From Amoebophrya sp. A120 (lineage: Eukaryota; Protista; Dinoflagellata), in NCBI GenBank assembly GCA_905178155.1, contig CAJINV010000005.1, positions 1,576,438 through 1,640,437 on the forward strand: DNA of 64,000 nt, given 5' to 3'. A model generated the notes under the pieces. The model saw only the letters and a list, made by a program, of their open reading frames with translations. It was not told the DNA's origin and searched no databases. Position 1 is the first letter of the stretch. Each line of letters starts with the position of its first letter. Below are positions 7,008-58,762 of the stretch, piece by piece. The translations under genes were made by a program, and so were the position numbers.

Positions 7008-7166
7008 TATCCGGCTCGTTCTCCGTCGGCATCCGCTAGTACTCGAAATCACCACCGCAGCAGACGTTTAGGCGTTTCTGCAGGGTGGGTCACTGACTAT
7101 TTTACTTGCAGCGCCAGCGGGTCGGTGGTGGTCGGAAGTTGTCTTGTGTTTTGCTGCTGCTGTGTG

Positions 7167-14366: not shown

Positions 14367-14372
14367 CCGCAG

Positions 14373-28136: not shown

Positions 28137-28524
28137 TTTATTTTGCTCTCGTGCTTGTTTGCGCGCTACAAAATAGGGCTACTAGGAAGATCTTTTTGTT
28201 GCTATGACAGAAGTTGTGGAGTGTGATCGGTTGTTGGAGGAGTGCTTGCTCTCGCATTGACTCTACGTCTGCTGGTACTGCACCGACCTGCACTGCGAAT
28301 CAATGGAGTCGAGCATTTCTTACCAGCCAAAATTCGGCTTGCTTGCAGTGGCTAGAAGAAGGATCGCACTGGAGCAGCAGAACGAGAAAAGTAGAACGCA
28401 GGGCGAGATCTTTATAATGCCAAACAAGTGCTCCAATTCAATTATTTATATTTTCACCAGATGGAAGTTTCTGCCTCATCAAAAAACAAATGCAATATAA
28501 AAGGATCATGGCCATCATCAAATT

Positions 28525-29695
28525 TGAAGCAAGAGCAACTCAGTCTCGTGCAGAGGAACAGCATCTTGTTCACAACAACTTCTTGATGTCTCGTTTCCTT
28601 CCCGCGGCGGCCTTGCGAAATGAAACCACCTTGCTTTGATTGATTTATCGAAACAGAAACGAAACCCAGACGTACTTTTGTACTGCCCCTTCTGGTGTCT
28701 CCTGTGTCACGAAATCTTTTCTGCCGTCGTGCTGCAATGTAATCGACGCCGGCTGTGATGTTGCATGCAGCTTCGCGACGCTCGCCTTCGCCAACGCCAC
28801 CTCATTCGCTAAATTACTTGTTACATCAACAACACTTTCAATCCTGATAAGTGTTACTGAATAAAGCTGCAGTCTTCTCCAAATTTAGATCTACGTTAGT
28901 GCCTCCGATCTGCGTACTGTTGTAAAATTTCTTCGAAAAAACAAACCAGATGACGGGGCATGAAGAGAACAAACGCATCAAACGAGCTTGTTCCAGTTGA
29001 TAGTGAAGCGGACGCTGTGGACACAAACACTCTTATCGGGTGCTCCCATCGTCGGTATCCTTCAGCGTTTTGTGCAGGGCGGTAAGCTATACATTGTAAA
29101 TATGTGTCTGGGCCTCGATAGAACGGACTTTGTGATGCCGAATTGGTTCGCAGGTGGATGGAAGTCAGATTCAGATTCACGAATTTGGTCTCACTCTCAT
29201 GCGTTGAAAAAGAAAGATGCCTGCCAACAAGTGCCCGCGCCTTATTTCCAAGCCCAGATCGATAATTTGCAATGCATATGATCTGGGCGATGTCGTTCCC
29301 CACATTCTGCATGTAGCCCATGTAGGTTTTGTAGGACGCGAAGTAGGCGTCCTTAGGGGTCTGAGGAAAGCCCGTCTCGTCCTCTTGCCCAATGCGCGCT
29401 TTGATGGTCATCGCTGCGGCGTTCATCTGTAGTGTTGGAAATCAATGTTGTAACTTGCTGCAATATGAAATCACATGCTCTGATGAACATGGTCTAGATC
29501 GAGTTGTACGCGTACTGCGTGATGAATATCGAGATTGATACAAAAAGAACTACTCAATCATGCACTTCTTACCATAGCCTGCAGCGCGGGAAGCGAGTTG
29601 GTCTGCGTGGTCTGTGCCAGGACCACGGTGGAGAACGGTGCGCACAGCAGAGCCAGAAGCAGCAGCATCGGCCGCGACTGCAGAAGCAGCTTCAT
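28525..29695 (-). CDS. Putative secreted protein, multi-exon; 3' end uncertain
   Basis: Signal peptide MKLLLQSRPMLLLLALLCAPFSTVVLA, a GT-AG intron, then a probable GA-AG intron 28844-29283 giving NDIAQ|IESVVDVTSNLANEV. Confidence 0.6.
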
Positions 29696-30615
29696 TCTTT
29701 CCGTTCACGTTGACTGCAGAATAGCAGTAGACAACTCAGAGCAGGATGAATCTAGATGTACTGTGTATAACAAAGCAAGGTGGTGATGTAGTGCATCACC
29801 ATCATGCTGTTTATCTTCCCTCTCAAATTAAACACAGTGACCCTCTGTTTGTGCCAAGAGCCTCCAAGCGAACTAACGCAGACTGCAGTGCAACGAAGTT
29901 ACTCGTACGGAGGACGCACGTGCAACACGGCTAATTCGCTACTTGATGCAGCTCCTGCTCCAAAACGAACCTCCTTAATAGTATGAGTATCATCAGGAGC
30001 GCAGGCCTTTTTCCTGTTTTTTTTCGTTTGCATTTATTTCTCATGTTCATGGTTTGTCTCCATCGTCGTGGTCGTATGTTAGCGTTTTCCGAAGAAAAGA
30101 GCTCACTTTGAAGCCGAGGAAGCAAAAACAAATGGTTTAAGGGCATGAGTTGTTTGCCGGAAAAACAAAAACTACAGATGCATAGTACAATTTGCTGGTA
30201 CAGTGGGTGTTGTATTGGTATTCGCCTCATTCAAATACAAGATTTTGACTCTCCTTCGTCACACCAAAATTTCCATTTTAGTTTAACAGGTTGCGGCTGG
30301 CACGACTTCTCCAGGTTGCACTGAGTTTAAGTTGGCGCCCTCCTTGTTTTGCGAATAAATTTTTTGTCTTTGTGCTTGATTAGTGTAATTATCCCTTCTC
30401 CTTCATTCGAACAAGTACTAAAAACCATAAGCATAACCATGATCAAAATAATCATCTACATCTTCTGATGAAACGGTATATAGTGTAGCTAGGTAGTCTA
30501 GTCGTCATTTGAAGAAAAAAAGCAGCAACATTTTTCCGTCAGGCTTCATCGTCTTTCGCTCCTGCATTGAAAACGCCTGGGCACCTTTAAGTTGATAGCG
30601 GAGACCACTTCATCT

Positions 30616-33600
30616 TCACTTGGCCACCTTGGGCAAGTTGTCAAACATGGAGAGCATCTTCTTCATCTCCGTCATGCGCGACAGCATCTCGTGCTGCTGC
30701 CTCTTCGCCGACACGAGCTGGTCCTCCATGTGCGCTTTTTCCTCCTCCAGGGCCTTCAAGTCCTTCAAATAGGTCGCCAGCTGCTCGTCGTCCTTCGCCG
30801 CCTCGAGCAGGTCGGTCACAGACGCCGAGGGCTCCGGCTCCTCCAGCAAGGTGGACTGCTTCTTCAGCTCTGCCAGCTGTTTCTGCATATTCCCCAGGGA
30901 CGGTCCGCGGACTGTGGACGAGGAGCGCAGCGGCGCCGTCGTGGGGGAATCCTGCGATTTAATTTTCTTTTAACACTATTGATTCTCTTTTTCATGAGCG
31001 ACATTGAGCATCAGCATTCCAAGAAGAACGCTATATTGCATCAAATGTTTGAGTGAAGATACCTCCTCCTTATCATCCTCGTCCTCGCTGTCTTCATCGT
31101 CTTCCGGTGGAAGATATCCTGTACAAAACTATCGCACTCGTATAAATGCAGGTCTTGCATTACAAATTTCTTTGTCAAGGCAAATCAGCATTACAAATTT
31201 TATTTCTCATGCTGAGAAAATTTGTGATGCATTTATACGAGTACGATACTTTTGCAGTTCATAGAAGATCCTCGGCGTTGATCTTTTCTCCCCGGGTATA
31301 CACGGAAAAAAAAGTGTTCTTCACCGAGTCAGGTCGTGGTCTGAAGATCTTCGTAACTACAGGTGGACGAAGTAGAAAATACAAGTGGATGAACTGGTGC
31401 AGTCAGCCATGCCTCTGCGTGCCAGCACAAAAACACACTAAAAAAACCGTAGCCGTTGTCTGTTCGTGGTGTCCACACAGACCATGCTATTTCTATCTAG
31501 ATCGATGGAGCAATTGGAATTGCCATCATCTGACACGTTGGCCACTTTTCTCCTCCAGCATACCCGTCTCCCGCCATGTTGTCCGCACCAGACAGCAACT
31601 CCTTCATCACTGCTATCTTCTCCATCAGGTGCTGTAGTTTTGCGCTATTGCATTACAAATTTTCCTGAGAATCTGAACATATCTTATACATACTCATATT
31701 ACAAGCTAAACTTCTTCTATAATACGAAAAAACTAGAATGTCAACGTTGACAAGATTCGAAAATATGGATCAGGATCAGCATAGTTATACATAAAGTACT
31801 GTGCTAACTATTTGCAGCTGCATATGTTGCATAAACACTCCACAACGTGATGATGAACTGCTTAGCAGTTCAATAGTATTAAACCTTACCTTCATCTCCC
31901 CAATAGTCTCTTCCAATTCCGGGTTCTGCGCTTTCATGGCCGCAGACACCCCTGCCTGGGTTCGCGCGGACGGCTCAAACTTTTTTCCCGGAGAAGCGCC
32001 CACTACACTGCTCGGGATTCTCATCGAGGCCGGCATGGTTGCGTTCAACGACGCCGGGGCGCGGCCTGTCGGTCCCGCGGACGCAGGACGGGCGCTCATC
32101 AGGTCGGCTCGGGTCGTGTAAAATTTCTTGCCTGTTCCAGATGCGCTTGCTATCCAGGGAAAAAAGATGGCGGCCGCCACTTCAAGAGCCACTCTTCATG
32201 AGCAGAACTGCGGTCGCAGAGCGGGACTAGGTTCCTTTAATACGCTATTGGTTGCTATTCCTGTTGGCGATCAATCTGAAATAGTAAACCAAATTTCGTC
32301 TACCATGTGCCAGGAAAATTTCGGATGTAAAAACTGCACAAACTCCGACGACAAGCATGGTTCTAATATTCACGGTCAACATCTCTTTTTCCACTCCATA
32401 TTTGCCGGCACGTTGCCGCCCGAAAACAGAGCCGCAGCAGCTTCAGCGCCGCTCCCGGCCCCTGCCTGTGCGCCGGTGACCTGGGCCAGCAACTGGTGCG
32501 CCTTGTCTTCCGGGTAGATCTTCTTCAGCATTTCCAAAGCGGTCTCCCGCACGGCATCCTGTTTCGCGCTGGAGGTCGTAGCGCGGTGATAAGCCGGCGT
32601 CGTCGGCGCGGTACGGGCCCCTGTCCCGCGGTGGACTGGCGTGACGCCTGCGTTATGGTGAAACAGGAACAAGATCATGAACAACCTTGAAGCAGAAGAA
32701 GATCGTCACTTTTGAGATGAAAGCCTCCAAGCGTCTGTCTCCCTCATACAGGCAGCAGACGCAGCGTCAGATGCAGCGAGAATTTTAAACTTTGTTTACG
32801 TCGTCGTGACATTAGTCTTTAACTTTATTTTTTGTGCCTGTTTTTCGTTTTACTTTTACGTTTACCTTCGTTTTGCTTCTTCTGCGTCAATAAGTCTCGC
32901 ATCTGCGTTGCAGCCTGCTGAATAGCTTTGTTTGCCGTGTCCATCTCTCCAATCACCGCTTCTTGGGCATCGATCACCTGTATCGATTATGATAGAATTG
33001 CAGAAAAAAAATCGCATGCAAGATTCACGGCATATGTCATGCTGCAAACGCAAGCCAAAGAAGTAGATACAACTAGTTTCTGAAACTACCACCAAATTCA
33101 TGTTCTTCTTCGTGTACTATACTTTCCGCTGCTGCTCGTACATATCATGGACCGCTTTCAGCATGGCCAAACTGTGCTCCAACCGCTTTGACAGCATGTC
33201 GATGGTGGCATCCTTTTCGTCACACAGCTGCTTCAAAAGGTCCACCTCATCCTGTTTGCTCCCCGCTGCGTGCTTCTTCTCGTACGCAATGGCCTCCTCG
33301 AGCAATTTTCGGTCCTCCTCATCCAGCGTAGCACCCAGGGCGGCCTCCTCTTCCTCATCGTTCTTGCCCATCTGCTCCAGGATCGCTGTTGGGAAATTGA
33401 AACTCTTCTTTATCGAGAAGATCGAGGTTCAGGTATAAGCTATCTTGTCATCATGCTCATAAAGACACAATTTTTCAACATTTTGTCTACTTTTAGCGCG
33501 AAATCGAAATCCAAATCGTTACCTGCATACTGCGAGTCCAACTTCGTCTGAAAGGATTCAATCTGTGCCTTAATTTCCGCTTCTTCTGCTGCCAAGGCCG

Positions 33601-34379
33601 CTTGCTTTCCCTTCGACTCTTCTGCCCCCTCGAAATCGTACTTGGACGGCGAAACCTTCTCCGGACTGGCCGTTCCCGGCACGACCTTTTTCAGCACGGA
33701 CAAGCCAATCACCCAGGCTTTCAGCTCCTCCACCGTTTCAAGTCTATGCATTGCAAAAGTATCGCATTGGTGTTTCGTTTTCTTTATTGCATTCTCATAA
33801 TTCATTGATTACATCTACATACAACATGTTGAGAAATCTATTTCATATATTGCCCCGCCATTCAACAGCATTCGAAACTGCATTTTCACCTGACTCTTGT
33901 GAAGACGCGACTCTTAGGTACAACTACACAGTCTGATGCTTTTGCGCTGCCTAGCACTGCAACTGCAGCAGATCCTCGATGAAGAGCAGATTGGAATCCG
34001 GGATGGGCGTGATGGCCCCCAGGTCCGCGATGGGCACCGACACCAGGTCGCCCACTTTCACGTCGTCATCGTTGCCCACCCACGCGTCGGAAAATTGCAA
34101 ATGGTCGAGCTTCTCGCTGTCGACGCACACCACCCGCACCGAGGATTTGCTCCACTTCCCGTTCCCCAGGTACGTCTTGCTTACCATGGCCTTCGGCGCC
34201 GCAATCTTCGCGAGATAGGACTTCAGCTCTTCCCGATTTCCGCTGGAAAGATCCGCATCGTTTTCATCGTCCGCGGATAGAACGAAATCCTTCATCGAGG
34301 CGGAGCTTGCTTGTTGAGCCTTCTTACTGAAAGACGCCCCTCCGCCATAAACGTCGGAGCTGGAAAATGCCGAAGCCAT
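30616..34379 (-). CDS. PH-like domain + coiled-coil protein, ~10 exons
   Basis: PH-type terminal helix ETVEELKAWVIGL and coiled coils. Exons join in frame through a mix of GT-AG and TAT...ATA introns. Confidence 0.7.
31110..31263 (-). mobile_element. Introner family A copy 1 (element 31115-31263, perfect TSD TCTTC)
   Basis: 29-bp subterminal inverted repeat with 3 mismatches. Close copy at 62456-62593. Removal gives INAEDL|PPEDDEDSED. Confidence 0.9.
31292..31562 (-). mobile_element. TAT...ATA introner intron (TSD ACGGG/CCCGG)
   Basis: TIR TATGCTGGAGGAGAAAAGTG ~ TATACACGGAAAAAAAAGTG. In-frame join MAGDG|GEKIN. Confidence 0.7.
32146..32400 (-). mobile_element. TAT...ATA introner intron (TSD GCAAA/GCAAG)
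   Basis: TIR TATGGAGTGGAAAAAGAGATG ~ TATCCAGGGAAAAAAGATG. In-frame join VPAN|ASGTGKK. Confidence 0.8.
32926..33121 (-). mobile_element. Degenerate introner intron (TAT...AAA; TSD GAAAG/CAAAG)
   Basis: In-frame join EQQRK|AIQQAATQM. Contains the TGTCATGC motif. Confidence 0.6.
33747..33957 (-). mobile_element. Decayed family A introner, now GT...CA (TSD TTGCA/ATGCA)
   Basis: Retains TGCAAAAGTATCGCA and GATGCTTTTGC, the family A inverted repeats. In-frame join LLQLH|RLETVEE. Confidence 0.65.
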
Positions 34380-35296
34380 CTTGCGATCTGTTCGATTGTG
34401 ATGATCTACCGGAGGTAAGAAGAGCAGCTCTACCTAGAGACCGAGCGCCTAGTAGCGGGGCAGGCACACGAGTCTCTTACAACTCTTCTTCTTCCTACGC
34501 AAGGAGCTTGAAATCGTATAGTGCTTAGCTACGATGAACTAGAGTTGCACTCATGGTGAAGTTTTGATATTTCTTTTCGCACTTTGATTTTTTCATCTTT
34601 TGGACAGAAACGCATTGAATCAGAGCGAGAATAAGCACAGCCTGGAATTAACCACGTACTCAAAAAGCACCCACGGTGCCGCCAAGTAAGTCAATGAAGT
34701 ACAAGCACATTGATATTAATGAGCCAGGAACGAACTCAGACTCGCGAACAGGAATCCTTGATTTGTTTGCAACGCAGATGAAGAACAAAGACAAACATAA
34801 TACTTGCAATGTTAAAGCACGTACTGTGTGCGAATGTTCATAATCTCTCTCATTATGTCAATTTGAACATGAAGAACGCAGAAAAGCAATATGAAGTACT
34901 GAACCAAGGCCTGCACCTGCGTGCTGCGTAGGAACATGAACATCAAACTAAAGTAACAGGAATGCTGGCATTGCACAACACCCAATCGGAAAGAGCGCCC
35001 GAAACAGGCTTTTGCGTGCCTGTTCTTCGTGTTCATCGTCAGATACATCAGATACTTACTCGTCACTCTATGCGTATTGGAATATTTCGACCGTAATCAG
35101 TCACAGGCTCGTCTAAGTAAGTAGTTGAGCCACCACAACGACCGGCGAAGATAGTGATCCTAGTGATACTTATCTGTGCTTCCGCTCCCCCATGATACGG
35201 GGCTTCTAGCCTTGTGGAAACATCTTCTCGCCGCGAGAAGGACAAGAGGCGTCGGCGTATGAGCCAGCTGCATCGTATCGAGGGACGACGTTCGTG

Positions 35297-38200
35297 TCAG
35301 CTCCCGTCATCATCATCGTCGTCCACTACCAATAACACATCGTCATCCAGTGCAGCATCAGATTCAGACTGAGACATCATCATCCCGCAGCTGCCCACTT
35401 CCTCGTCCTCGTCTGATGAATGCACCTCGAGCTGATCCCGGTCCTCGTTCTCGTATATGTCCGAGTCCGAAATCTCGATCACTTCTATTTCGGGTCTGCT
35501 GGTGTAGTTCTCTCTTGCAATAGACGTAGCAGGGGAGGTAATTTGGACTTTATTGTCCTGTGGTCCCGCCGCCGGGGGCTGTAATGCTTTTTCGGCATCT
35601 CGTTCTTCCTCTTTCTGGACCATTTTTCCTGCAGCTGCTTCGTCCTCACTATCATCCTCTCCAGTCAGGTCAATCAACAAAGGAGGCTCCCTGTTGAGAA
35701 CATTCCCGACAAAGGCAAATCCAGGAGCGTGGGGAGGGCGTGGTCGTGTGCCAGCAGGGCCTGACTGTTGTTGATTCGCGACTGCACTATGACCACTTAT
35801 GATCCCTCGATTTTGGTTCTCATCACTGGCAACAAAACTTGCTGCAGGCTGTGGCCGTGGCACAACTAGGGCACCACTTGGTCCTGCAGCTGCCTGCTGA
35901 TTCGCCGCGGCTATCACGTTTGCGAAAATGTTATCCACCTCGCTACCACTGTTTGGTGCTGAAGATCCGACGCCCGAAGAATTTATTATTATTTTGGACT
36001 TTGACGCCTGCTGCGACGAGGAAGACCCACCACGACCTGCACTTGTTGATACAAAGAAATCGTGGGCCGTAACTGAATTCGACTTCGGCTGAAGCAGCGT
36101 CTTCGGCGCACCTGTTGATGAAGCGGTAGATGCTGCGACATGATTTTTGATGTTGATGTTGTGCTGAAGAACCCCTGCAACTTGGCTCCCGTGGTCATCT
36201 TCCTTCTTCCGGATTTTTCTGCTCAGCGCGGCTTCCACCTTCCCAAAAGAGTCATCGTCGTCCGTTCCCCCAAGTACTAGTGCGTGGTCCGAGCCTCTTT
36301 CAGGATTCGAGCTCTCATCTTCGCTCCCCGCTAGAAGATCCGGAAACATGTTGGGACGCTTGTTGCCACGAAATGCTGGCGCGTTTTTGGTGAGAGCTGC
36401 GCTGCCCAAGCCCGTTGCGAAATTCCGCACATTTTTTCTTACTGCGGTGGATTTCTTTTCCCCATTTTCGCCGAAGGAAAACACTTGCAGCTGGTTCGCC
36501 TTTGGTTTCGCTGCTCCTTTCCTCATCGGCGGCCTTTCCTCCGTCTCCGCGAACTGAAAGTCCTGCTGCTTATCATCACCCACACCCATCCTACTTCCAC
36601 CACCGTGATTCCTGTCGTTCTGCCCGGTTCTGCTACCGTGCTTCTGGACGATCTTTCTCGCCTCGCTCCGCACCGCGGTATGTTTTTTCAACGTGTGCAT
36701 CCTGTCCATGGCGTAGCGCCTGGCCAGCCGCTCGTCCGCGATCGGGAAGTTATGGTAGATCGTGTTCTCGTCCGTGAGAAAGTGTGCGTGAAAAGCCAAA
36801 ACCTGTGCCTCGAGGAGCACGCTGAGATCCTGGAGAAGCAGCTCCGTTTCTCGTTCCTGCTGTAGAACCACTTCGAGGCTTGCTTTTTCATGTTCGACGC
36901 CACTCAGGGCGGGGAACGAAGTCGGCTGCTCTTGCTTCGTTTTGTTCACAGCTGTTTTATTTCCCTTGCTTTTCTTCTGCCGGTCCTTGTGCTCCTTGTC
37001 GGCGTTCCACCAAGCGGCAGCAGCATCTGGGTCGTGCTCAGTCCGCGCCCAGGGCTGGTGGACGGATCGAGAGGGTTTCGTCTTGTCTTGCTTCTCCCTC
37101 GTCTTCGCGGCGGCCCCGGCGGCAGCCCTCGCTTTCGTTGCGGTCTTTCTCTGTCCCGCCTTCGCCTTTGGTTGTTTTTGCGCTCTTTCCAGATCGGCTG
37201 CTGCTGCGGCCCCCGCGGTGGCGTCTTTACTTATTTGCACGATTCGAACTCCGCTCCTACCATGTGCAGAAATACCTGCAGTAGTCGGAAAAACCAAAGT
37301 AGAACTTGTCGCGCCACCTACAACTCCTGTACTCGTCGTGGAACTGCTAGACAAGGAGACCCCTTGCTCGTTTGGCCGCCCATAATTATAGGCCTGCTCT
37401 CCTGTCGCGGCTGCATTTTCATTGTTCATATTATTCTTCATCGGTTCTTCACCTTCATGCGGCCGTGCCGGTAGCCACCTTTTCAAAAATCGGCCGTCGG
37501 GATCCTGGTCTTCGGACTGCTTAATCGGGTTGTAGCATCGGATCGTGTTGATGCCCGTCGTCCCGGCTTGCATCTGCACCTGCGGATAGTGAATCCCCGG
37601 CTCGTAGTCGGTGAACAGGCGTGCGAGGTGGATGGCCACCGGGCGCCAGTGCAGCCACAGGTGGAAGGTCGCGAAGCTGCACAGCATCGCGCGCATCCGA
37701 AAGTTCACCCACCCGGTCTCGGTCAGCGCCCGCATGCACCCGTCGACCATGGGGTAGCCGGTGGTGCCGGAGGCCGGGATATGATATGGGAAAATGAAAT
37801 CACCTCAGTGTTCACCATCTTGTTGCCACGGCCCCCGATTGGATACTACAATTTGTGGTCATAGTACGCCCAGTACCGCCTAGTTCTATGCAAAGGGCAA
37901 GGATAGTATAGAAGCTAAGGGAAGTACTTACCACAAAAAATACCAGGTGAAAAAATCGGTGGCGAAGAAGATGAAGATGGCTTTCGCTTTTTTTCTCTTT
38001 TGATTTTTCGCAAAGGATAACAGTGGAGAAATTTCAGCTTGTCGACAAGCACGGAACGATCTTGCTCCACTTGACCATAATGTTGACCGCTTGAAGATGA
38101 AGTTTGGATCGGTGGTATCCGTACTATCGGAAGCTTTGTCTGGGAAATAAAAAGTCCATGCGCGCTATTTGTGCCTGTCGCACTAGTGTCACTCGTCCAG

Positions 38201-40557
38201 GAAGCTGATTCACCTTCTGCTGCAGGAGCTGCGTTTTTGCGGAAAAGTTCTTCACTCTCCCGCCGTACGACAGCCACTGGATTGTTCGCCCTGAACGCAG
38301 CGGCCTTCTGCCCGTCGATGCTGCCAAGAATGGCATCGAGAAGACGCGAAGATGAAGGTGGGTGCGACGATGATGGTCCTCTCGGCATCTTTTCCCCACA
38401 GTAGAAGTTGCCAACATGTTCTTGCTCGTCCAGATGCACGTCGTTGTTTGCGTCCGCACTAGCCATAGGGTGTGCTGACGAAGCCCAAAAAGTCTTCTTC
38501 CCCGCGACCCATCCCACGGCCCACTGCGAGATCGCCACGGCCTCAGCATCCGTGATTGCGTTTTCCTCGCGGATACCATTGTAGCCCGAGTGCAGGTTGC
38601 GAAACTCCAGTAACGGTTCGTCCTCCAGCTTCTGCCCAAAGTGACAGTGCCAACGCAATCTGGACGCGAAACTGTTCAGGTCGCGGCCGTTGACCGCGGA
38701 GGGGACTGATGCAGTAGCAGTGGTCGCGCTTGTTGTTTCACTTCTACCATAATCTTGACCTTGACCTTGAGGCCGCTTGTTTCTCGTTTTGTTGTTCCCG
38801 TTTTTCTTCTCTTCCGCTATTTTCCCACGCTTTTTCTCCGTGGCTTGAAAGACTTCCCGAAGACTGATCGTGCCAAAAGCCAGGTGTGGCGACAGTCGCG
38901 CACAGCCTTCCCACGCGGTAATGGGCGAACTAATGTTGCGGCTGTAGTTGGACGCCCGTTCCGCCAGGAAGCTTTCCAGCATCCAGATCGCGTTGCGACG
39001 GCCGCCCTTCTGCAGCGCGATGCAGTGGTCATCGACAAGGTCGAAAGCGGACGGAGGCGGAAACCAGGAGGAGGACGGTGTGGAATTTGATCCTCTCGTA
39101 GAAGTTGCAACATCTTTTGCAGGAGCACCTGAGGGGGCTACAGCCCGTCCTGTCAGCCCCGTGTTCTGCAGCAGGTCTTGCGAGACCTCCTCTCTGGCAG
39201 CAGCCGGATCGTCATCTTTAGGCCGCGTCTGCTCTTTCCTGGCACAAAAACTACCGAATTGCACATCCCCGCACGCTGCGTAAACTTCCTGAAACGTCGA
39301 CGCCGCACGGTGGCTTTTGTCGCATACTTCTGTTGACGAGCGAACATTTTCATCCTCATGGGTGTTCTTCGGATGGGCATTGCATTTGTTCTCGGAGTTG
39401 TCAACACCTGTCTGCCCCTCGAGGGAGCACCCAAACCTGAATGCGGACAACCCCTGTTCTGGTACGCCGCCGGGACAGATGACCTTCCTAATGTCAAGCA
39501 CCTTTTCGCGCATGAAAATTTCCCACTGTTTTGCCCAGCCGTCTCGGTTTTTCAACCTTCGCACCACCCCGGTTTGTCGCGGCTCTCTCCACCTGATGCC
39601 GTGTGCGTCCTATGCAAGAGGACAAGTCGTAATTCATCACTTTTATATGCCGCACACATAGCAAACGCAACACAAACTTATTTTCCGGCAAGAGGCTGCA
39701 GCTCCAGGCCGACGACGACATTTGTCTTCGTGGTGATCAGTAATAAGGGAGACGAACGCCCGATAAAGTGATCTGTTTATATCGTATGGCCCCCCTTTTT
39801 CGCCGACGCCGAAACTCGCAAAAGCCCCCCTTTTTTTTTGATATGCAAAGGAAATGCAACTGAAGAGGACCTGGCCCCTATGCATTGCCACGTCGTGCGG
39901 GTGATGAAATTCAGAACTCAAATTTACACCGGATAACTTGCAAAACCTCCGAACTTTCCGGTCGCGCTGGTAGGTCCAGTAGTTCCACGTTTCTTGGTGA
40001 GAGTAGAGCGTCTGCACAGAAAACCCGTTTTCCTGGAAGGAACTCCGCAACGCTTCCAGGGTCTCCACAACTTCGCCGACTTTGAAGAACAGCTGGAGCC
40101 CTAGCAACTGCTGCAAATCCTTCTGTAATTCCCTCACGCAGTCTTGCAGAAACAAGTAGTGCCGTCGTGAGAGATCCGGACACGTTTTCCACAGCGTGGG
40201 TTCCAGAATGTAGACGGGAAGCACAAAGTCATGATCTTGCTGGATTTGTGTTCTAGTACCGGGCACTCGGGACGGAGGGAGGTTTTTGTGTACGCTACTT
40301 GGTGCGAAGTCGACGTGATGATGGCCGTCCTCTGTTTTTCCTGCTGCTGACGTTGTCGACCTCGACGCCAAGGCCTCCCAGAGCGGGGCGTGGTCGTGGA
40401 CACGGAGGTCCCGCTTGAACCACACGAGGGCGACGCGTTTCGGGTTTTTACCCGAAAAGTGTATTGCTTTGGTGCTGCTAGTACAACTGGTAGCCCCAGA
40501 TGATGAGCTGCTCGACGAGGTGGACGCGCCGGAGTTTGCGCAGGCGGGCATCAACAT
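35297..40557 (-). CDS. DNA photolyase/cryptochrome family protein with large low-complexity insertions and tail, 4 exons
   Basis: LVWFKRDLRVHDHAPL, ARLSPHLAFGTIS, SRLRWHCHFGQK, GTTGYPMVDGCMRAL, NFRMRAM, DYEPGIHYPQVQMQAGTTGINTIRCYNP, DPDGRFLKRWLP. Confidence 0.92.
37775..37863 (-). mobile_element. 89-nt TAT...ATA(+5) intron with no remaining TSD
   Basis: TATGA...TCATA. Removal gives RYWAY|ASGTTGYP, collinear with the photolyase consensus RFxAWxxGxTGYP. Confidence 0.75.
37882..38019 (-). mobile_element. Tentative TAT...ATA(+5) intron before an 18-nt micro-exon
   Basis: In-frame join KLKFLHC|RRYWAY. The TIR is weak. Confidence 0.45.
39606..39935 (-). mobile_element. TAT...ATA(+5) intron with no remaining TSD
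   Basis: Removing 330 nt gives RDRKVRRFCK(S/A)HGIRWRE..GVVRRLK, which matches the family. Confidence 0.7.
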
Positions 40558-41480
40558 TTGCTTAGCACTTTACTTACCTCCAAGTCCACCAAAAATCACG
40601 ACTCTAGCACAAATCCGAATGGGAGCTCTAGTACTAGAGCGCAGCAAGAATGAAGAAAGCCAAGAAGTACGGGAACGGGGGATGTCCTAGTGGACGGGGT
40701 TCCCCGAGAGGGGAATCGGAATAAATCATGTACATTGCATGCGTACAATCTACAATCACGAGGTTTTGGTGAAAAAAAAAATCGGTATTTAGAATTAGAT
40801 TTACATCCAAAAATAAGTAGAAGACAGTATAGGAAAGCAAGAGGCTGAGGTCCTGGAAGATTTCTTGCGACAGCATGAGCACTCTCAGTTTCTACCGTGT
40901 GGCGATGACGATGTTGGTGTTTCGGTCACCTTCACACCCCAAGCTGCAGGTAGGACGAAGTAGAAGTACTACAACTCTTCTTCTGCTCCGCCCTTGTTTC
41001 TTGAAAGGCAAAGGAGGACTCTGGTATACGTATAGTTTCCCCACCACCTTCAGCTGTGTTGGTTCGTTTCGGATCTTCTCTTGATGATGATGATCTCGTA
41101 CTAGAAAAACCAGAGTACAATGGCGTAAAAATATGCTTATGCAGTCAAGCTGGTGCTTTATTGATTTTCAACACAAATTAATGTGTCGTTCGCCATTTCA
41201 TTCTAAATTCGTTGCGTCTTCACAATCGACCACCAGCTAACAAGAATGCAGGAGCTGCTTCAGTCGTAGTTGTACCAACGCAAGTGGCATCGACAGCACT
41301 CGACGAACACTCCACTTCGACTTCAACAAGAACACGAAGAGAAACAGATGTGCGACTTTTTTACCTACTTATTTTGCGCGCCGGCGCTGATAGATTAGTG
41401 ATGCACTTTTACTTTTGATTTTGATGCAGCTTGCTTCTTGTGCTCTAGGAGATATCGAGGAGTAGATTTTCTTTTCTTGG

Positions 41481-43602
41481 TCAGCAGTAGTTTTTATCCA
41501 CATGATCCAAGTAGCTCCAGATGGTTTCCTCAGAACTAGAGCTGCTGTTTCCACCGCCGGAACTCGCCCTACTCCGCTTCTGTTCCCTCTCCTGCTCCAT
41601 TCTTAATTGCTGTGGCGATTTCCGAAAATGGTCGTTCACCTGCATCGCTAGGATATCAACAGTAAAGTGCACCGTACAGATACACAACGCGCCCTTGCAT
41701 GACAAAGCGAATAAAGCTCCTGTTCTTACTGTTACAAGTTTACACAGGATTCACAGAAAATTGCCTGCTTTTCGTTCGCCACAATACCATAAATACATGA
41801 TGCATTTCTCCTGACTGTCTCTGTCACGCCTTGTAGTACCAGTACGGTGAAATAGAAGAAGTACTATCTCATAGACGACGAGAGAGGTGACCAAGCCGAA
41901 GTACCCCGCGGCGATGCCAAACTTCTGGGTATTCGGTATGTTGAAGAACCCCGGCGGCCGGTCCACGGGATCGAAAAAGCGCTGGTAGGTCGAGAAACAG
42001 CCCATCAGCAGCGTTATGTACAGCATGGGCGCGGTGGGCATCAAATAGATTAGCCCCGCGTTGCCGGCCAGGCCGCAAATCAGAAACCCGGGATGCAGTG
42101 CCCCCAGAATGCGGCCACCGTCCATCTGCCCCACGGGCATCAGGTTGAACAGATTGATCAGAAACCCCCAGTGGGCGAGGGCGAACGCGAGCTGGGACCC
42201 GGTCTGCAGCCCGTACAGAAAGGGCGCCACGGCCGCGAGGGAGCCGAGAACCGGGCCGGCGATCCCAATCAAAGCCTCGTGGGTGGCGTTCTTCGGTTGG
42301 TCCCGCATCTCCACGGCGGCGCCCATAAAGGGGAGAAACACCATGGGGCCGACGGGCACCTTCAGGTACCTGAATGACAATGATAATGAAGTGGATAAAC
42401 ATAACCGTAACCCTAGGTGAGCATGGCGGGCGATTTTTCATTTTCTCAAGTAGAGGTCGGCGAACTGAATGTAAGACACAGTCTGCGACTGAATCTGAAA
42501 CATACAAATAGAAATACCTCATCATCAGAGCGTGGCCCATTTCGTGCACGAAGATGAGGGAAATCATGCCCAGCCCGTACTGCCACCCGAACACGTACGC
42601 GTAGGCGAAGCTGCTCAAGACAAGCGACAGCAGCGGGCCCATCTTCGACAACTTCAGGAGCGGTATGGCAACCTTCAGCCCCGGCAGCACCTTGACCGCG
42701 GCGTACCCGGCCGCGCCGACACCGAGGACCCGCTGCCAAAACCCGCCGCCGGTCGAGTCCTTGCGGTCAAATTGGTCACGGTTTGATCCGGAGCTTTTCC
42801 GCGCAAAGTGGCGCGCTTGTTCAAGATGCAGAAGTTGATGGTGTGCAGGGAGAAGGCCGCCCGCTTTGGTTTTCAACATGATCGAGGTAGTTCTGTCCCT
42901 CCTTATCAACTCGTCGTCATCGGGTGAAGCAGCCACGCAGGCTAGAAAGCCTCCAGGTGGGCTAATCCTTGTTTGTCGGTGTGGCGTGGCCAGTGCGGCA
43001 TTCATTCCGGGTGGAACGTCCTTGTGGTGAGGCGGCCCCTCGTACTGTAATGGTGGTCGCGCAGCTTGTCCACCAGCGCGGGCCGCTGTGCTGTAGTTCG
43101 CGTTGTTACAACTGCCAGTCGATTGTTTCCCGTACAGCACCGAGCGCAAGGTCGCAGGAAACTCTTTGAAACTTGGATAACGAGAATCAACAAGGGATTC
43201 CGGCGGCGACTCGTCCACCCACTCCTGCTCCCGTCGCGGTCCTCGTCGTCCACCAATGTTGGGTACGTTACTTCCACTCCCGCTCGACGTCGACGAGGTA
43301 GAGCACGACGACGGCGCAGAGGATGAACTACAAAAGCACCTGCTCTGAAGAAACCTCCGCCCTTGGCTGGGGGCGCGTGCGTTAGCATCAAATGCACCAG
43401 AATTCCATCGCCTGGTTGTTGACGTACTAGTCGACGCACTGTAATGCTTGCGTAGTACCAGTCGACAGGGCAACTCGGCTGAACGGGGAAGAGACCAACG
43501 GGGCCTCCTCCTCGTCAGGTCGTGGGTTAGCTTTTGCATCAAACCAGAGTTCTTCACAGTCGCACTACGAACGGGCTGCGCGTGCGCGAGGAGGGTTTGC
43601 AT
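41481..43602 (-). CDS. Site-2 protease (M50 intramembrane zinc metalloprotease) with a long organelle-targeting-like N-terminus, 3 exons
   Basis: HEMGH, IAGP, NLFNLMPVGQMDGGRI, TM helices. GT-AG intron ~42366-42517 and TAT...ATA intron 41649-41873. Confidence 0.9.
41649..41873 (-). mobile_element. TAT...ATA introner intron (TSD TCGTC/TCCTA)
   Basis: In-frame join TSLVV|AMQVNDHFRK. Contains GCATGACA. Confidence 0.7.
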
Positions 43603-44574: not shown

Positions 44575-47500
44575 TCATGGAGTGTCAAGCTCATCTTCAA
44601 CTTCTTCATCAGTCGCTATCCGTGCGCCTTCAGGAGCAGGGCGAGTGGTCCCTGCGTCAAGCAGCGAAGGTATCATGTTAATTGCTGTGTGAGTTGTAGG
44701 CTGGAGCACACTGCTGCTACTCGTTGAAATAGTTTCGGCGAGCCGTTCTAGACAGTTACTTGCTGTGGACAGTTGTAATCGCTGCTCTTGTCCAACAGTA
44801 GACGACATCTTCCCGGCGCTGGAAGCACTGGCGCAAGAAAAACTGCTGGTCGTAGACGTCTTCAGACGCTTCGCAGCTCGGTCTGCGACATGAGAAGGCG
44901 ACAGAGAGATATGCTGGCCCTGCTCCTCAACAGCACTGTCGATGTGGTGCACTCCGCGCTTGTTGCTTGATCGCGCTTGATGTTCTGTCGCAACAGCAAC
45001 AGAAACACAATTACCTTCGCCCACATCTTCCTCCAAGATGTGGACAAACCCATTTTGGATCCAGATTTGCTTCTGGGCTGCCATTTTGGTCAGCACACTC
45101 TCCAACTTCACGCTACTCATGCTCGTCTCGTCGCGCACCGTTTTTAACACCGTGTGCAGCGGCACAGCGGTGCTTTCCGCGTCACGCTCCTGCTGTGAAG
45201 CAGACAACAAGCGCAGCGATTGCGAGACGAGCCGCAAGTCATGCTCTGTCACGTTGGAAGCGGAAGACGTAATGTGGTCGCCGACAACTTGCTTTTGCTC
45301 GATGAAAGTGGACGAGGACGGCAAATTCGCAGACGCGCTGCTTGATGCGGGCTGAGAACAAGTAGCGCATTTCTTATTTGCCATCTTCGTGGTCGTGCTG
45401 GGATCTGGTTCTACTTCATCTCTTGCTCCTCCTGCGCTAGTACCAGCTCCGGTTTCCGCAGCACCGGCTGCACTAGTAGCAGCATGTTCATGAGAATCCT
45501 CGCCGAAGCGCACAGCAGCCCCCAGCGCGGTTCTTGCTGCTTCATCCACATAACCATCGGTTGTTCCAACATGGACGCCATCTGGTAGTTGTCCTCCCTG
45601 AGAGCAGGCGTGCGGGTCGACAACATTGCTCTGCGCATCTTTGGCGCTGCCTCTGCTCCGTAGCGCCGCGCATTCCGCTTCGAGAATTCTTACCCGGTGC
45701 GAGAAAAAACGTATCGACTGACGACACGTCTCCGTCTTCAAGGCTGCGCGGTGCGCCTCGTTGGCGGCGACAGCGCGTTCCGCAGCGTAGGCCGCGATCG
45801 CCTTCCTGAGCGCGTGGTTGGGTCGCAATTTTGTGGATATCAGTGCCTTGCCCGTTATCGGCGAAGTTCTGTTGCCAGTCTTGAACCACTCCGAGATGGC
45901 AGATCGGTCGTAGGTGTGGCCGTCCTTCGTGCACACCGGATCTTGCATGACATCGTGCAAAATCGGACAGCGGAAATCTGCCAACATCGGAAACAAAGCC
46001 TCGGGATCGACCGTCGACGCAGTCGTGCTTGCAGAAGGCGCTGCGAAAGCGGCCGCGTCCCGGGCAGTGGCGGCAACCACCTCAAGCCTGGTGTTTTCCG
46101 CGACCTGCCGATACGAAGTTTTGATGCGCCGGACGGTGTCCAACGTTCGCAGTCTGGCGATTTCCTTCTGTTGGTCCTCAATGCGCGTGTTCAGCGGGAG
46201 CGTGCGGAGCCGCCACTCAGATTCCACTCGCTGCGCGCTCAGCTGCCAATGAAGTTCCAGACTTTTCAGGCGCGCCACCTCCGTGTTCGCCGCCTTTCGC
46301 TCCTCTCGCAGCCTGCCGTTGTCCTGGTCTGCCATCTTCACGACGCGGGCGACCTCCTTCCGTAATTCGCTGTTTTCCGTTTGGAGTTTCTTCTCGCGGC
46401 CGCTGCGCTCAAGACAGCTCTGCAGGTTCTTTTCGTTTTCGTGTTTTAGCTTCTGCACCTGTGTGGTAAGCTCCAACTCGCTCCTCCGGAAATTGCTGTT
46501 CTCCTCTTGCAACGCCTTCACAGTTTGCGCATTCTCGCGTCGCATCTTGACGCCCTCGCTTTCCAAGAGTCTAAGGCGGAGCTGCAGCCTCTTGATTAAT
46601 TCAGCTTGCCCGTCCTGTAGTTGCGTGTTCCTGTTCGACGGCGGGACGACCGCACTCTGCAGGTTCTTTTCGTTTTCGTCTTTTAGCTTCTGCACCCGTG
46701 TGGTAAGCTCCGACTCGCTGTTCCTGATTTTACTGTTCTCCGCTTGCAGCGCCTTCAAGTTGTGCGCATGTTCAAGGCGAGAGCTCTGCAGGTTTTCCTC
46801 CATTTCGTCTTTTAACTTCTGTACCTGCGTGGTAAGCTGGGACTCGCTGTTCCGGATTCTGGTGTTCCTCTCTTGTAACGCCTTCACTATGTGCGCTTTC
46901 TCACGTCGCATATTAATGCTCTCGCTTTCCAACTGTTCAAGGCGGAGCTGCAGCCTTTGGATTAATTCAGCTTGCCCGTCCTGTGTCGTATTCGACGGCG
47001 GGAAGACCGCGCGCGCGTCTTTCAGCTGTTTTTTCAGGTTCGTGTTTTCCTCTTGCAGCTTTCGCCTTTCGACATACACTGCTAACCCATCATCGTCCTG
47101 GGCCGGCTCCTGTACGATGGCTTTGCTGGTCGATGCCTGCGCGGTCGACTTCGTTTCCACCGAAGAAGTGCCGGACGGCTGGAAGCTAGTGCAGCCACTA
47201 CCGCGCACCAGCACTGTGTCTAATTGCGCTGCGTGGTTGTTGTGCAGCTTTGCTACGTACTGGCAGTGGCAGTCCACTACTCGCTGCAAGTCTGCGATCG
47301 TCTGTTCGGACTGCGTGACCTTGTGCTGCAGCTGCAGCAGGCGATGTCCGCACAAGTGGGCCGCGTGCCCGGGACCAGCGACCCACTCGAGGCCGTAACG
47401 ACGTCGAAAAAACGTGTCGATTTGGGCCCGTAGCACGAAATTCGGAGCAACTACAGTGGACGGGAACTGCGACCGGGTGAGAGGTGAGATAAGGGCTGCG

Positions 47501-54422: not shown

Positions 54423-57400
54423 CTAGACACTAGTCTCTACTTTGACTTTGTAGTGCACACCGCTTTCTCTTTCCATCCGCTGAATTTTCTTTTCGAATTT
54501 TCGAGCGTAATTCGTCAAATATGTTTCCTGCTTCTCTACCGTTTTTTCAAACAGCGCCCCCATCTCCCCCAAAAGTCGCGCGACGGTATCGCGAATCATC
54601 CTCGTGTGCCGCAAATGCGCTTCCTGCATCAGAGATTTCGGCAATGCTGTAAGGCGGTGATTATTCGGGGAGCGGGAGAATGTCGGTGAAGAACCGGGTG
54701 ATGATGAACCATCCTTCTTGATCACTGAGGTTTTTGCAACCCCCGTGCCCGTTTCCACCTTCATCGTTTTTAGTGACAGTAACCTTCTCGCCACAATTTC
54801 CACTTGCGTCGCCAAGTAAAATCACGGTGAAAACAAGAAAGATCTCTTCTCTGGTATCACTTGTCTCGTTACGTCGCAACTTTTAGTTCTGTGGGGTTGG
54901 GTGGTCGTGCTGATCAATGTTGCGCAGGAACAGAATAAAAAAGACGGATACGGCAGTTTTCTGTGTCGTGCGGTGCCATGATTTTCTATCGTGGTTCTAA
55001 TTTCATCGTCGCATGCAAACTTTGCAAAAGCTAGTGAAGATGATTACGATCTAGCTCCTTTTCCAACTGTCATAGACAGTCCGCGTTCTCCAACGTTTCC
55101 TTGACCTCGTCAAAACAGGACTGCAACTCTTTCTTCAACTCTATCAACCCAATCCGCGGGTCCCCGACCCCTGCCAAGTCGAAAAACTTCCCGATCTTGA
55201 TCCACGGATCCGTCGGGTCGGGGGCGGGTTTCGTTTTCAAAAACGCTTTGCTGTTCGCGCGACTTACAGACTTTTTCCGTGTCAAGTTCTTGTTTTTGTC
55301 CCCCTCATCATCGTCGAACAGAACGCTTTCCGCATTCCCCGTTCCAGAAGCGTCCTCCTCGCCGGAAAAGTCGATATCGTCAACATCTAGGCTTGAAAAA
55401 TGCCGCTGCACGTCGTTGAACAACGCGGTCAGGCCCTCGGCGGAAAGCAATCCGTCAAAATCCACGTGCACGTCGTCAAATTCGTCGTCCAATGGATTGC
55501 AAATGTGTCTGGGTTTGGAAGAATACAAACTTGTGATGCGCATTTCAGAACACAGAAAAATCTCGCATGCATAGGTAGCAGAGGCTGCCCACTTTCTGAC
55601 AGCAAAGTGGGGGATTTGTCATGCGAATTCAGCACTGCGGAAGCTTCTCGAAACGTGTGATGCTAGATCTTCCATGCCAGACCTTCTGTGTCATGCACTT
55701 CCATGCCAGACCTTCTGTGAAACAACATGACTCTTCCAGACCCGGACATTTTTGCATTTGATACGTCCTCCAGAGCCTCCGCCGCGCCCGGGTCGGCTTC
55801 GATCTTTTCATCCGCTCTGCCGCCCAGTTTCTCCCCCAGGGGATCGGACTGCACCACTTCCGCCAACAATTCCTTGTCGAAAACGATATTATCCTTGCTG
55901 GTGCGCAGAAGCGTCGGGGGGGAGGTTTCATCTTGATCTTGCTCTCCTGGAGGTGCAATCGTGGTATTGTTTGCGTCTTTTGAAGCTCCTAAACCGTCGC
56001 CCCCACCGCCTGCGTCCAACTTTAACTTGCACAGAACCTTCGTCAACAAGGCCGCCCGCTTTAATTTTTCCGCGGCAGCCAATTTCACGCCCTCGACGTT
56101 CTCCCGCGCATCCTTCTCGAGCTTTTGCAGCACCGAGACTAATTTCTTCTTTTTCTGCATTTTTTCCTGCAGTTTCGCAACCCGGATTTTTTTCCCTTCC
56201 TCCTCTCTCTCCTTCTGCTGCTGCTTTTCTATTCGCGCCAGCAAATCCTCTTCAAACGCGAGACCTGCCGCCGCGAACTGGGAGAGCACACACTTCCGGA
56301 ATGCTTTCGTTAGATCCCGCGCCGCGCACGCAAACACCCCGTGCACCGCGGCGGTCTCTTCGCACGCCAGCATGCAGTGCGCACTGCAAAACAGGTTCGC
56401 GACCGTGTTTCGGAACTCCGGGGTCTGCCACGGCGGTTGGCTCGTGGTCTTCGTCGGTGGGTCGCTGGCTATATTTTTTCTTCCACTCGTTGGAGAAGAT
56501 CCACCAATTCCGCGTCGGGCCGGGGAGCACGCGGAAATCGACAGGGAACAGGAACTTGTAGAGGTGTTCGAGTCCGTTTTACCTTTATTGTTATTCGTGC
56601 TTCTCGTCGCCCGCATAATTGCTGGATCTGCTTCCTGTAAGTAGGCCGACCTCTCGGCCCGGTGGAGAAACGCCTGCAGGAAGTCCGTGAGTACGATCGA
56701 CTGCCGAACCGCGCCCTCTGCTATTCGCGTGTTTCGTAGTACACCTTCAACACAGCGGGGTCCCTGCTGGTCACTTCCTTTTACTCGTGACGGTGATCCT
56801 GCTCTGTCTCGCTCCTGTGTAGCAGTATCCTCTTCCACTTGCAGGTTGACCAGCTTTCGTGCGGCAGTATCCTATGGAAAGCTATCGCAGTCAAAAAAGA
56901 CTAACACTACGTTCGTTGCAAATACAAACGACCCGAGACTACTCTACACTACTCTAAATTCCTTAGCTGCCTCGAGATAACAAATTTTCATTGTGCAAAT
57001 TCTTATTTCTTGTATTCATCCGTACATAAATGGTAATGGCTGCGGTTCATCCACGATGTGCTAGTTCTACGATCTAGCTTCATCTGCAAGTACTTCTGGA
57101 TAGATCGCGGCGACGAGCAAGAGCATTTCCGAAATTTTCAGCGCCAGCCCGGGATTATCAACCACGTGGTGAAAGTGGATGGCGGTCTCCAATATCGAAG
57201 CAGGTTGTAGTTGTGATGATTCCGGAACAAGTTGTCTCGTGTCTGTCCCGATCGTGCCTGTCGTGTCTCCAACATGGGTCCTCAACAAAACGAACGTCTT
57301 CTGCGGATAACTGTCGGTGTGTCGTGAAAGTTGTCGCCATACAGCGTCGTCCGACGAGCGTATCTTTTTCATTAGCGAGGTTGGGTTACTACATCTAGTA

Positions 57401-57621
57401 CCTGGTGATGTAGTCGTCACACCTCCAAGTAGACCTCCTCTTTTCACTGTTTCTCTTCCGCGCCCGTCGTCGTCGTCCTGCAAAAGTTGCTGCGCTAGCA
57501 GCACGGTGAACATTTTCCCCAATTTTTCTTCGCAAATGCCCAACACCCCCTGGAGCCCGTCCGCGTCCTTCCGGGTCATGTAGTTTCCCGCAACTTTCGC
57601 CAGCTCCTCGCTATTATGCAT
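54423..57621 (-). CDS. Hypothetical multi-exon protein with coiled coil; further 5' exons likely up to ~58300
   Basis: ORFs 57067-57621, 55663-56838, 55070-55543 and 54423-54815 join in frame via introns 56863-57102, 55486-55763 and 54815-55074. Confidence 0.6.
54815..55074 (-). mobile_element. Degenerate TAT...ATT(+5) intron
   Basis: Imperfect TIR. In-frame join ENADC|LATQVEIV. Confidence 0.55.
55486..55763 (-). mobile_element. Introner family B copy (element 55491-55763, perfect TSD GGACG)
   Basis: Both termini match 49049-49300. Join EALED|DEFDDV. Confidence 0.9.
56863..57102 (-). mobile_element. Tentative TATCC...GGATA(+5) intron
   Basis: In-frame join LLVAAI|ARKLVNL. An AG acceptor is also available nearby. 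Confidence 0.45.
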
Positions 57622-58762
57622 TGCAAATACAGTATTGGCGCAGGCAGTAATAGTGGAAAATCGTACAAATTTGCTTAGGTAAGTGTGTCATGCAGACTCT
57701 GGCTCAAAAGCAATTTCTGTTTTTATTCGTGGTCCATACTTGACTGCAAAATCACTACGACTACGATGCAGCTTTTGCATTGCGTAGCAGTCGCCAGAGG
57801 CCGGAAGCCGGGTGACGTCCAGTAGCTGGGCGGACGCGCGACTGTCCGAGGCAGAAAGTTGCAACATTGCCTATAATCGCAAACGTGAGAAAGAGAAAGA
57901 CACTGACAGAAATAAAGACGCAGCTCGGCTCAAAAAATCTATGAAACCCTCGAGCTCGACCGCCGTTGCTTTCGTCTTTTGTCTGGCTGCAGGAACAACC
58001 GCCTTGATGGCTATTACTCAACCACCTCGTCTTTGCTATTCTTCTCGTCGCTCGTCTTCCACCTGATGCGCTGTGCATCATCATGATCCGCTCGATGAAA
58101 ATGTTCAACTACTCTTCTACACGCCTCTGCACAAGCATAGAAAACTTGCTACTTACATTTTTGGGTTATGATCAACGATACTGTCTCGACGAAGAGGCAG
58201 CAGGAGCAGGAACACTAGTGTTAGAAGTGTCGTCGTCGGAATGCCGGCTCCCCACTGACCGTCGTGGTGCGTGCCGTGTGGCACTCACAAAACCTGCACG
58301 TCCTCAAACTGCTACTAACTTTTTTTCGGATACAAGAACGGGGATGGGGAACAAGGGCTATTGCTATACTCTTGTTTTTGTACTTATTTGAATCGGAAGG
58401 GGAAAAAAGTAATGATGACACGTGGTCCACCATCGAAATAAAAATAATTGGGATCTTCTACCACAACATTTTCTTTGCGTGCTTAGTTGAGTTGAATGCA
58501 ATATGGCACGGCTAGCTGCAAATGTAAAACGCTGTAGATGGATGAACAGATATAGGGAATCAATGGAAAACAGCACGATCACGAAAAAATCGAAAAAAAA
58601 GGAAAAACAAGCTTGTCGAGCTTTTATCAATGTCAGCATCGATCACACACACACACTCTACATCGGGGAAAAAACTACATGCACGAAGGCCGCAGCTTTC
58701 TTTCAAGAACAAATACAAAATGAAAATGCTTTATCTGAGCCATATCTACGTATCGGTATCCG

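What the first reader, a model, noticed from the sequence alone, without database searches (positions are those of the whole stretch)
37775..39935. TAT/ATA ends and the 5-nt offset persist after the TSD has decayed
At 37775-37863 (CGTAC vs TCCCG), 39606-39935 (CAAGT vs GGACG) and 2941-3150 (GCTGG vs CTTGA) the duplication is gone. TAT...ATA+5 still predicts the junction that rebuilds conserved protein (RYWAY|ASGTTGYP; RRFCKxHGIRW). Inference: the termini and spacing are under selection as splice signals, not just transposition scars. Because the two 5-mers differ, these introns would show the exact cut register.
Basis: partly seen in the sequence, partly recalled or inferred. Interest (0 to 1): 0.8.

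Follow-up and report, generated by a model that had tools for sequence, protein, structure and literature searches.

The report
Fixed cut rule for transposon introns
In the marine parasite Amoebophrya A120, introns likely born from transposons are cut out of the RNA one base before a starting TAT and four bases after a closing ATA even where the flanking repeat is gone, which likely amounts to a simple non-GT-AG splicing code for introns whose cut sites were published as variable.

Summary
The window encodes a protein identical to one named Amoebophrya sp. A120. Its TAT-ended non-canonical introns are a published class (PMC7789003).

The first intron is mis-called: the supported intron is 37776-38020, giving KFLHW|ASGTTGYP, and RYWAY is intronic.

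All 12 introns tested (8 from RNA contigs, 4 from a public gene model) fit one register, N·TAT…ATA·NNNN (1+4). Every other register is excluded by at least 5 of them. A common register arises by chance in about 0.2% of simulations. Flanking 5-mers match at 30 of 60 sites, terminal triplets at 32 of 36. +2U, +3A, −7A and −6U are invariant; +1 and −4..−1 are free. The two ends of an intron do not significantly co-vary.

Best reading: a ruler-type code, most likely read by a modified spliceosome (about 50%); the main rival is a separate Euglena-like machinery (about 35%). I found no fixed register in the texts I read, but I could not see the figures.

The parts
37776..38020 (-).
   Evidence: Contig ends at 37775 and 38021; exact match to P0001; conserved Trp formed only at 1+4. 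Direct joint not displayed.
39607..39936 (-). Non-canonical intron T·TAT…ATA·GGAC (330 nt); 5-mers CAAGT/GGACG (1/5)
   Evidence: Direct join in X1 record 4, no slide; P0001
2942..3151 (-). Non-canonical intron G·TAT…ATA·CTTG (210 nt) in an ABCG-type transporter gene; may slide 2 nt; 5-mers 2/5
   Evidence: Joint in X1, X2, X4; continuous in X5
33741..33954 (-). Non-canonical intron C·TAG…ATA·GACT; 5-mers 0/5; register uniquely 1+4 with a TAG start
   Evidence: Joint in X1 and X4, both=0
29084..29279 (-). Non-canonical intron A·TAT…ATA·GCTT; 5-mers 3/5; allows 0+5 or 1+4
31111..31264 (-). Multi-copy element with intact 5-nt duplication; register uninformative
   Evidence: 82.5% identical sister at 62456-62593
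31293..31563 (-). Non-canonical intron G·TAT…ATA·CCCG; 5-mers 3/5
32147..32401 (-). Non-canonical intron A·TAT…ATA·GCAA; 5-mers 4/5; excludes 0+5
54816..55075 (-). Intron C·TAT…ATT·TTAC; 5-mers 1/5 (gene model only)
   Evidence: P0123 mapped to the window
55487..55764 (-). Intron G·TAT…ATT·GGAC; intact duplication (gene model only)
56864..57103 (-). Intron C·TAT…ATA·CTGC; 5-mers 2/5 (gene model only)
57611..57787 (-). Intron C·TAC…ATA·ATAG; 5-mers 3/5 (gene model only)
35297..40569 (-). Host gene, 3 exons, 1561 aa, DNA photolyase and FAD-binding domains; the FAD domain match (aa 731-849) spans the 38021|37775 junction

Best explanation
These are likely MITE-derived introns of Amoebophrya A120; in all 12 cases tested their removal from RNA fits one fixed register, one base before the 5' TAT and four bases after the 3' ATA, likely carried out by a modified spliceosome that measures from the old transposon ends.

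Inferred steps:
(1) Insertion duplicates 5 nt.
(2) The 1+4 cut leaves 4 nt of the upstream copy and 1 nt of the downstream copy in the mRNA, so one full copy is restored.
(3) The five intronic copy positions act only as spacers and drift to random sequence, while the ends and spacer lengths are kept by selection.
(4) The 5' end puts U and A at +2/+3, the register of the canonical GUA donors in the same genes, with +1 relaxed.
(5) The 3' site is set by distance from AUA rather than by AG.
For: Shown: 1+4 is compatible with 12 of 12 introns. Registers 0, 2, 3, 4 and 5 are excluded by 5, 5, 8, 9 and 9 of 12. A common register arises in 0.2% of 200,000 random-register simulations of the 8 RNA junctions.

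Shown: the intron is present in DNA-type run X5 and absent from RNA-type contigs, which also skip GT-AG introns.

Shown: +2T, +3A, −7A and −6T are 12/12; +5 is G or C in 12/12; +1 and −4..−1 each take all four bases. The 9 of 9 canonical donors shown begin GTA.

Literature (PMC7789003 supplement part 3, Table S4): all 9 predominant A120 non-canonical classes are NT-NN, and all 9 in A25 are TT-NN; the A25 repeat starts TTA plus two purines, which resembles GTAAG with +1 changed (my inference). The paper reports nearly all spliceosomal proteins present and U1 snRNA undetected.
Against: The spliceosome step is untested: there are no lariat, circle or branch-point data, and I saw no U2-type branch motif by eye near the 3' ends.

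Canonical introns in the same genes keep strict GTA…CAG (9 of 9), and 98.6% of introns at positions shared by A25 and A120 are canonical. That fits two separate systems.

The +2/+3 coincidence has a 1-in-6 prior for A120 alone, and the A25 register was not tested. Table S4 may be shaped by aligner and strand handling.

The sample is small: 12 introns, all on the minus strand; RNA from 2 samples of one study, as contigs rather than reads; gene models are transcript-derived and perhaps not independent. One shown joint (25462|25539, in a multi-copy repeat, side 28 nt, one run) does not fit, and 12 of 27 joints were not shown.
Confidence: 0.5

Rival explanations
1. The same fixed 1+4 code (about 85% likely under either machinery) is executed by a dedicated non-spliceosomal endonuclease plus ligase, as proposed for Euglena nonconventional introns, possibly on a short UAU/AUA stem.
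For: Terminal dinucleotides are free (0 of 12 GT-AG). Canonical introns stay strict. Euglena has inverted motifs with fixed 3-nt and 5-6-nt spacers (PMC12501133), and its excised introns are reported as circles without lariats (PMC11282704). The terminal pair has probability of at least 0.6 in 5 of 12 folds.
Against: No in-register pairing at all is predicted for 37776, 39607 and 54816, and the terminal pair is at most 0.01 in 6 of 12. Own-partner complementarity is not significantly above cross-partner (79 against 72.1±5.2, P=0.11; with GU 95 against 86.2±5.3, P=0.056). U and A sit at the canonical donor positions.
Confidence: 0.35
2. The ends are conserved only because the elements are recent transposon insertions that never had a perfect duplication; there is no selection on them as splice signals.
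For: Duplication identity does not correlate with inner repeat complementarity (Spearman 0.04). Ages were not measured directly.
Against: Duplication identity is graded (5,5,4,3,3,3,2,2,1,1,1,0). Low-identity elements have no sister in the window, and 2942-3151 draws no extra DNA contigs at 95% likeness, whereas the intact element 31111 draws many. The cut stays tied to the ends.
Confidence: 0.08
3. The junctions are reverse-transcriptase template-switch or assembly artefacts, or reflect DNA-level excision.
For: The evidence is cDNA contigs labelled 'RNA?'; the elements have hairpins and direct repeats, which favour template switching (general knowledge).
Against: Precise joins occur with no direct repeat (33741, 39607: slide 0). 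They restore 1561-aa and 829-aa reading frames and an invariant Trp. Intronic depth is about zero for 39607-39936 (15.6 observed against 15.56 expected if empty). X5 holds the 2942-3151 intron unjoined.
Confidence: 0.03

Closest known systems
Amoebophrya A120 non-canonical introns / introner elements (PMC7789003)
   Same: Same organism label, TAT start, A-run about 7 nt later, 5-nt direct repeats in intact copies, non-GT-AG junctions.
   Different: The text and legends I read call the splice sites variable relative to the hairpin (repeats 1-5 nt from the sites). Here one register fits all 12 introns. The three named introns lack the 8-20-nt perfect inverted repeat and the direct repeat that define an IE.
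Euglena nonconventional introns, code N3CDG…CHGN5-6|R (PMC12501133)
   Same: Inverted terminal motif at fixed spacers from free splice sites, longer spacer on the 3' side, proposed MITE origin, coexisting with GT-AG introns.
   Different: Motif TAT/ATA with spacers 1 and 4; spacers sum to the duplication length; no purine rule after the intron (7 of 12); unrelated lineage (alveolate).
Fritillaria borealis non-canonical introns (PMC11282704 review; PMC13326754)
   Same: Transposon-derived non-GT-AG introns with terminal repeats and duplications, handled by an altered U2 spliceosome.
   Different: Those keep dinucleotide preferences (AG-AC, AG-AT) and U1 snRNA; here +1 and −4..−1 are free and +2 is U.
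Micromonas/Aureococcus introners (PMC11282704)
   Same: MITE insertion made harmless by splicing within the duplication.
   Different: They need near-canonical sites supplied by the element or the target; here any target sequence would work.

Membership tests
Amoebophrya A120 non-canonical introns | In A120, RNA-supported, ends not GT-AG | tested here: met
   P0001 named A120 is reproduced exactly; joints; 0 of 12 GT-AG at 1+4
A120 introner elements (strict definition) | Repeat starts TAT, then about 7 variable nt, then an A-run | tested here: met
   TAT at 20 of 24 ends; A at inward position 12 in 23 of 24
A120 introner elements (strict definition) | 8-20-nt inverted repeat between the intron's own ends | tested here: not met
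   The three named introns match at 8, 11 and 5 of the first 15 positions, with no perfect 8-nt run
A120 introner elements (strict definition) | 3-5-nt direct repeat at the borders | tested here: not met
   2/5, 1/5 and 1/5 in the three named introns; 5/5 in 2 of the 12
A120 introner elements (strict definition) | Member of a repeated family | tested here: inconclusive
   No sister in the window, no extra DNA contigs for 2942-3151; whole genome not held
MITE / TIR DNA transposon | Terminal inverted repeats, fixed-length duplication and multiple copies in young members | tested here: met
   31111-31264 with sister 62456-62593 (both 5/5); 55487 and 49049 share ends (both 5/5)
MITE / TIR DNA transposon | Cognate autonomous transposase | not tested
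   No genome available; PMC12130899 passages mention an A120 family with terminal repeats and Copia/Gypsy-like reading frames
U2-type spliceosomal intron | GT(GC)-AG ends | tested here: not met
   3 of 12 start GT, 1 of 12 ends AG, none both
U2-type spliceosomal intron | Branch-point A and lariat product | not testable with these tools
   No parasite raw reads mapped (2 reads each in X7 and X8)
Euglenid nonconventional intron | N3CDG…CHGN5-6|R signature | tested here: not met
   The motif is N1·TAT…ATA·N4; a purine follows in 7 of 12
Euglenid nonconventional intron | Excision as a full-length circle | not testable with these tools
   Needs sequencing of excised RNA

The most novel reading that the evidence does not exclude
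A120 runs a second, non-spliceosomal pre-mRNA splicing machine, evolved independently of Euglena's, that reads a transposon end and cuts by ruler so that exactly one 5-nt duplication is removed at any target sequence. That would make any insertion of these elements a clean intron at birth and would explain most of the strain's non-canonical introns as old introners under one code.
Probability: 0.3. Interest if true: 0.9.

Novelty: new variant of a known kind. Interest (0 to 1): 0.63.

Why it matters
How more than 60% of introns in A25 and A120 are spliced without GT-AG and without a detected U1 snRNA is an open question in the source paper. A fixed 1+4 register turns 'variable splice sites' into one code with exact predictions: which bases end a lariat or circle, which positions are free, and which mutations should block splicing. 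It would explain how a transposon can spread by the tens of thousands through coding sequence without needing splice-site-like targets. It also offers an annotation rule: the public model misses the 2942-3151 intron.

Tried and rejected
- Whole genome: not held, so there was no genome-wide test.
- Raw-read RNA runs X7 and X8: 2 reads each mapped, not usable. No listed holder is on record as RNA; I treat X1, X2 and X4 as RNA because they skip GT-AG introns and leave intergenic bins empty where X5 is even.
It cannot be excluded as a minor isoform, because bin 37508-38174 has depth 33.5 against 27.9 expected from the two flanking contigs.
- Hairpin as the sole signal: not supported by folding or by partner permutation.
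- Shared internal words in these introns: nothing decisive.
- Protein search for the gene at 58763-63900: no hit within the length range searched, so its five predicted introns are untested; removing them gives a 1305-codon frame, which tests length only.
- Metagenome scan: 32 loci of distant photolyase homologues, no close relative; used only for the Trp count. My pattern for the other junction matched 0 of 32.
- Earlier findings of this scan: two look-ups returned nothing.
- The subset statistic (six elements with duplication identity of at most 2/5: 7/30 against 34/36) is biased by selection on low identity, and the consensus match at positions 4-14 is partly circular; I rely on the all-12 figure.
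Full report
Identity. A search with the middle exon returned a 1561-aa protein labelled Amoebophrya sp. A120 at 100% identity and an A25 orthologue. It has photolyase and FAD-binding domains. No whole genome was held. PMC7789003 (I read the abstract, sections 10, 11, 12, 16, 25 and 32, supplement passages and supplement part 3) describes A120 non-canonical introns whose inverted repeats begin with TAT and carry 3-5-nt direct repeats. It calls the splice sites variable relative to the hairpin and leaves the mechanism open. The class is therefore known; the question is the register.

The three named junctions. I laid spliced contigs on 21500-41499 and on 1-9000. X1 record 4 joins 39606 to 39937 with no mismatch and no possible slide, so the intron is 39607-39936: T·TAT…ATA·GGAC. 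X1, X2 and X4 join 2941 to 3152 (slide 2), while the DNA-type run X5 is continuous over 1-5799.

The first intron is mis-called. Contigs stop at 37775 and start at 38021. Of 36 register pairs for the two photolyase introns, only 1+4 with 1+4 reproduces P0001. That junction gives KFLHWASGTTGYP; A25 has KFQHWASGTTGYP, and 24 of 24 homologue loci with the motif (32 fetched) have Trp there. The other five registers give C, S or P. RYWAY is not in P0001 and has an in-frame stop 17 codons before the proposed junction. The direct joint was not displayed, so this case is indirect.

Register. One search found 27 joints and showed 15: 9 GT-AG, 5 of this type, and 1 (25462|25539, in a multi-copy repeat, one run, side 28 nt) that fits neither. 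With the three above there are 8 RNA-based cases. Four more come from mapping P0123. 1+4 fits 12 of 12. Registers 0, 2, 3, 4 and 5 are excluded by 5, 5, 8, 9 and 9 of 12, or by 5, 4, 5, 6 and 6 of the 8 RNA cases. Random registers give any common solution in 0.2% of 200,000 trials. 33741-33954 has 0/5 duplication identity, no slide and a TAG start, and is still cut at 1+4. Table S4 of the paper lists nine predominant A120 classes, all with T at +2, as 1+4 predicts genome-wide; aligner and strand effects may contribute.

Chance. In dinucleotide shuffles of each intron, 0-4 of 3000 show 1+4 TAT/ATA, against 7 of 8 real ones; none of the 9 canonical introns does. As a predictor from DNA alone the rule is weak: 2-19 frame-compatible pairs lie near each intron, which is how the first junction went wrong.

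What is conserved. Flanking 5-mers agree at 30 of 60 sites and terminal triplets at 32 of 36 (p=1.3e-4). +2T, +3A, −7A and −6T are 12/12, +5 is always G or C, and +1 and −4..−1 are free. Four of 24 ends deviate from TAT/ATA. Duplication identity is graded from 5 to 0. Intact elements have sisters (31111 with 62456 at 82.5%; 55487 with 49049), and decayed ones have none in the window. I infer decay with age and selection on ends and spacer length. Against this, duplication identity does not track inner complementarity (rho 0.04), and ages were not measured.

Hairpin or sequence. The terminal pair is predicted at 0.6 or more in 5 of 12 and at 0.01 or less in 6 of 12; the two photolyase introns show no in-register pairing. 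The ends of one intron are not significantly more complementary than ends of different introns (P=0.11; 0.056 with GU pairs). The data favour recognition of each end's consensus, but the power is low.

Mechanism. Shown: RNA-level removal at a fixed register that restores one copy of the 5-mer. Inferred: the machinery. For a modified spliceosome, all 9 canonical donors start GTA, so U and A fall at +2/+3 in both intron kinds; A25's TT-NN classes and TTA-RR motif point the same way; and the paper finds nearly all spliceosomal proteins but no U1 snRNA. For a separate machine, canonical introns stay strict, terminal dinucleotides are free, and Euglena offers an analogue with fixed spacers (PMC12501133: abstract, sections 8 and 12) and reported circular products (PMC11282704: passages and section 6). 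I put about 50% on the first and 35% on the second. The fixed register itself I put at about 85%.

Caveat on the third intron. The transporter's reading frame switches near 3385 and stops at 3316-3318, upstream of the intron. DNA and RNA contigs carry the same letters, so the conserved downstream frame that the intron rebuilds may not be translated at present.

Literature. Eight searches were run. I saw passages of PMC12130899, PMC12005148, PMC11453091, PMC12621601 and PMC13326754; none of the passages states a fixed register for Amoebophrya. I could not see Fig. 3 or Figs S19-S23, bioRxiv supplements or subscription papers, and a logo there may already show it. [quoted passage not shown]

Verdict. 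New variant of a known kind; interest 0.63.

Noticed in passing
window 2270-5592 (-): ABCG-type transporter gene with a frame switch near 3385 (about 5-6 residues missing against paralogue P0004) and a stop at 3316-3318; the same letters are in DNA and RNA contigs, so it is not an assembly error. The public model P0003 stops there.
   Followed up: partly
window 7167-15038 (-): Retroelement with RT and RNase H; 7200-9000 is multi-copy in X5 and nearly uncovered in RNA contigs. An upstream frame (14373-15050) ends in one stop directly before a 2401-codon frame in the same phase, which resembles readthrough.
   Followed up: no
window 24835-25633: Multi-copy repeat with a hairpin at 25078-25172; its 76-nt joint 25462|25539 fits neither GT-AG nor 1+4.
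   Followed up: no
window 32978-33122 (-): GT-AG intron reading G·TAT…ATA·CAG (1+3): chance, or an introner turned canonical.
   Followed up: no
window 37776-38020: X1 contigs break at both ends of this intron and there is extra depth in the bin: retention or a second isoform, unresolved.
   Followed up: partly
window 49049-49300, 60880-61238, 61373-61630, 61714-61873, 62105-62383, 62456-62593, 50653-50864: Seven further predicted elements (five with intact 5-nt duplications), untested by RNA; 61373-61630 would separate 1+4 from 0+5.
   Followed up: partly
window 44575-47859 and 52419-53837 (-): Two U-box proteins; all genes examined in the window lie on the minus strand.
   Followed up: no
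PMC7789003 supplement: A120 is listed with two U5 snRNAs and several copies of Snu114, Brr2, SF1, Prp38B and Prp43 homologues: candidates for a second recognition mode.
   Followed up: no
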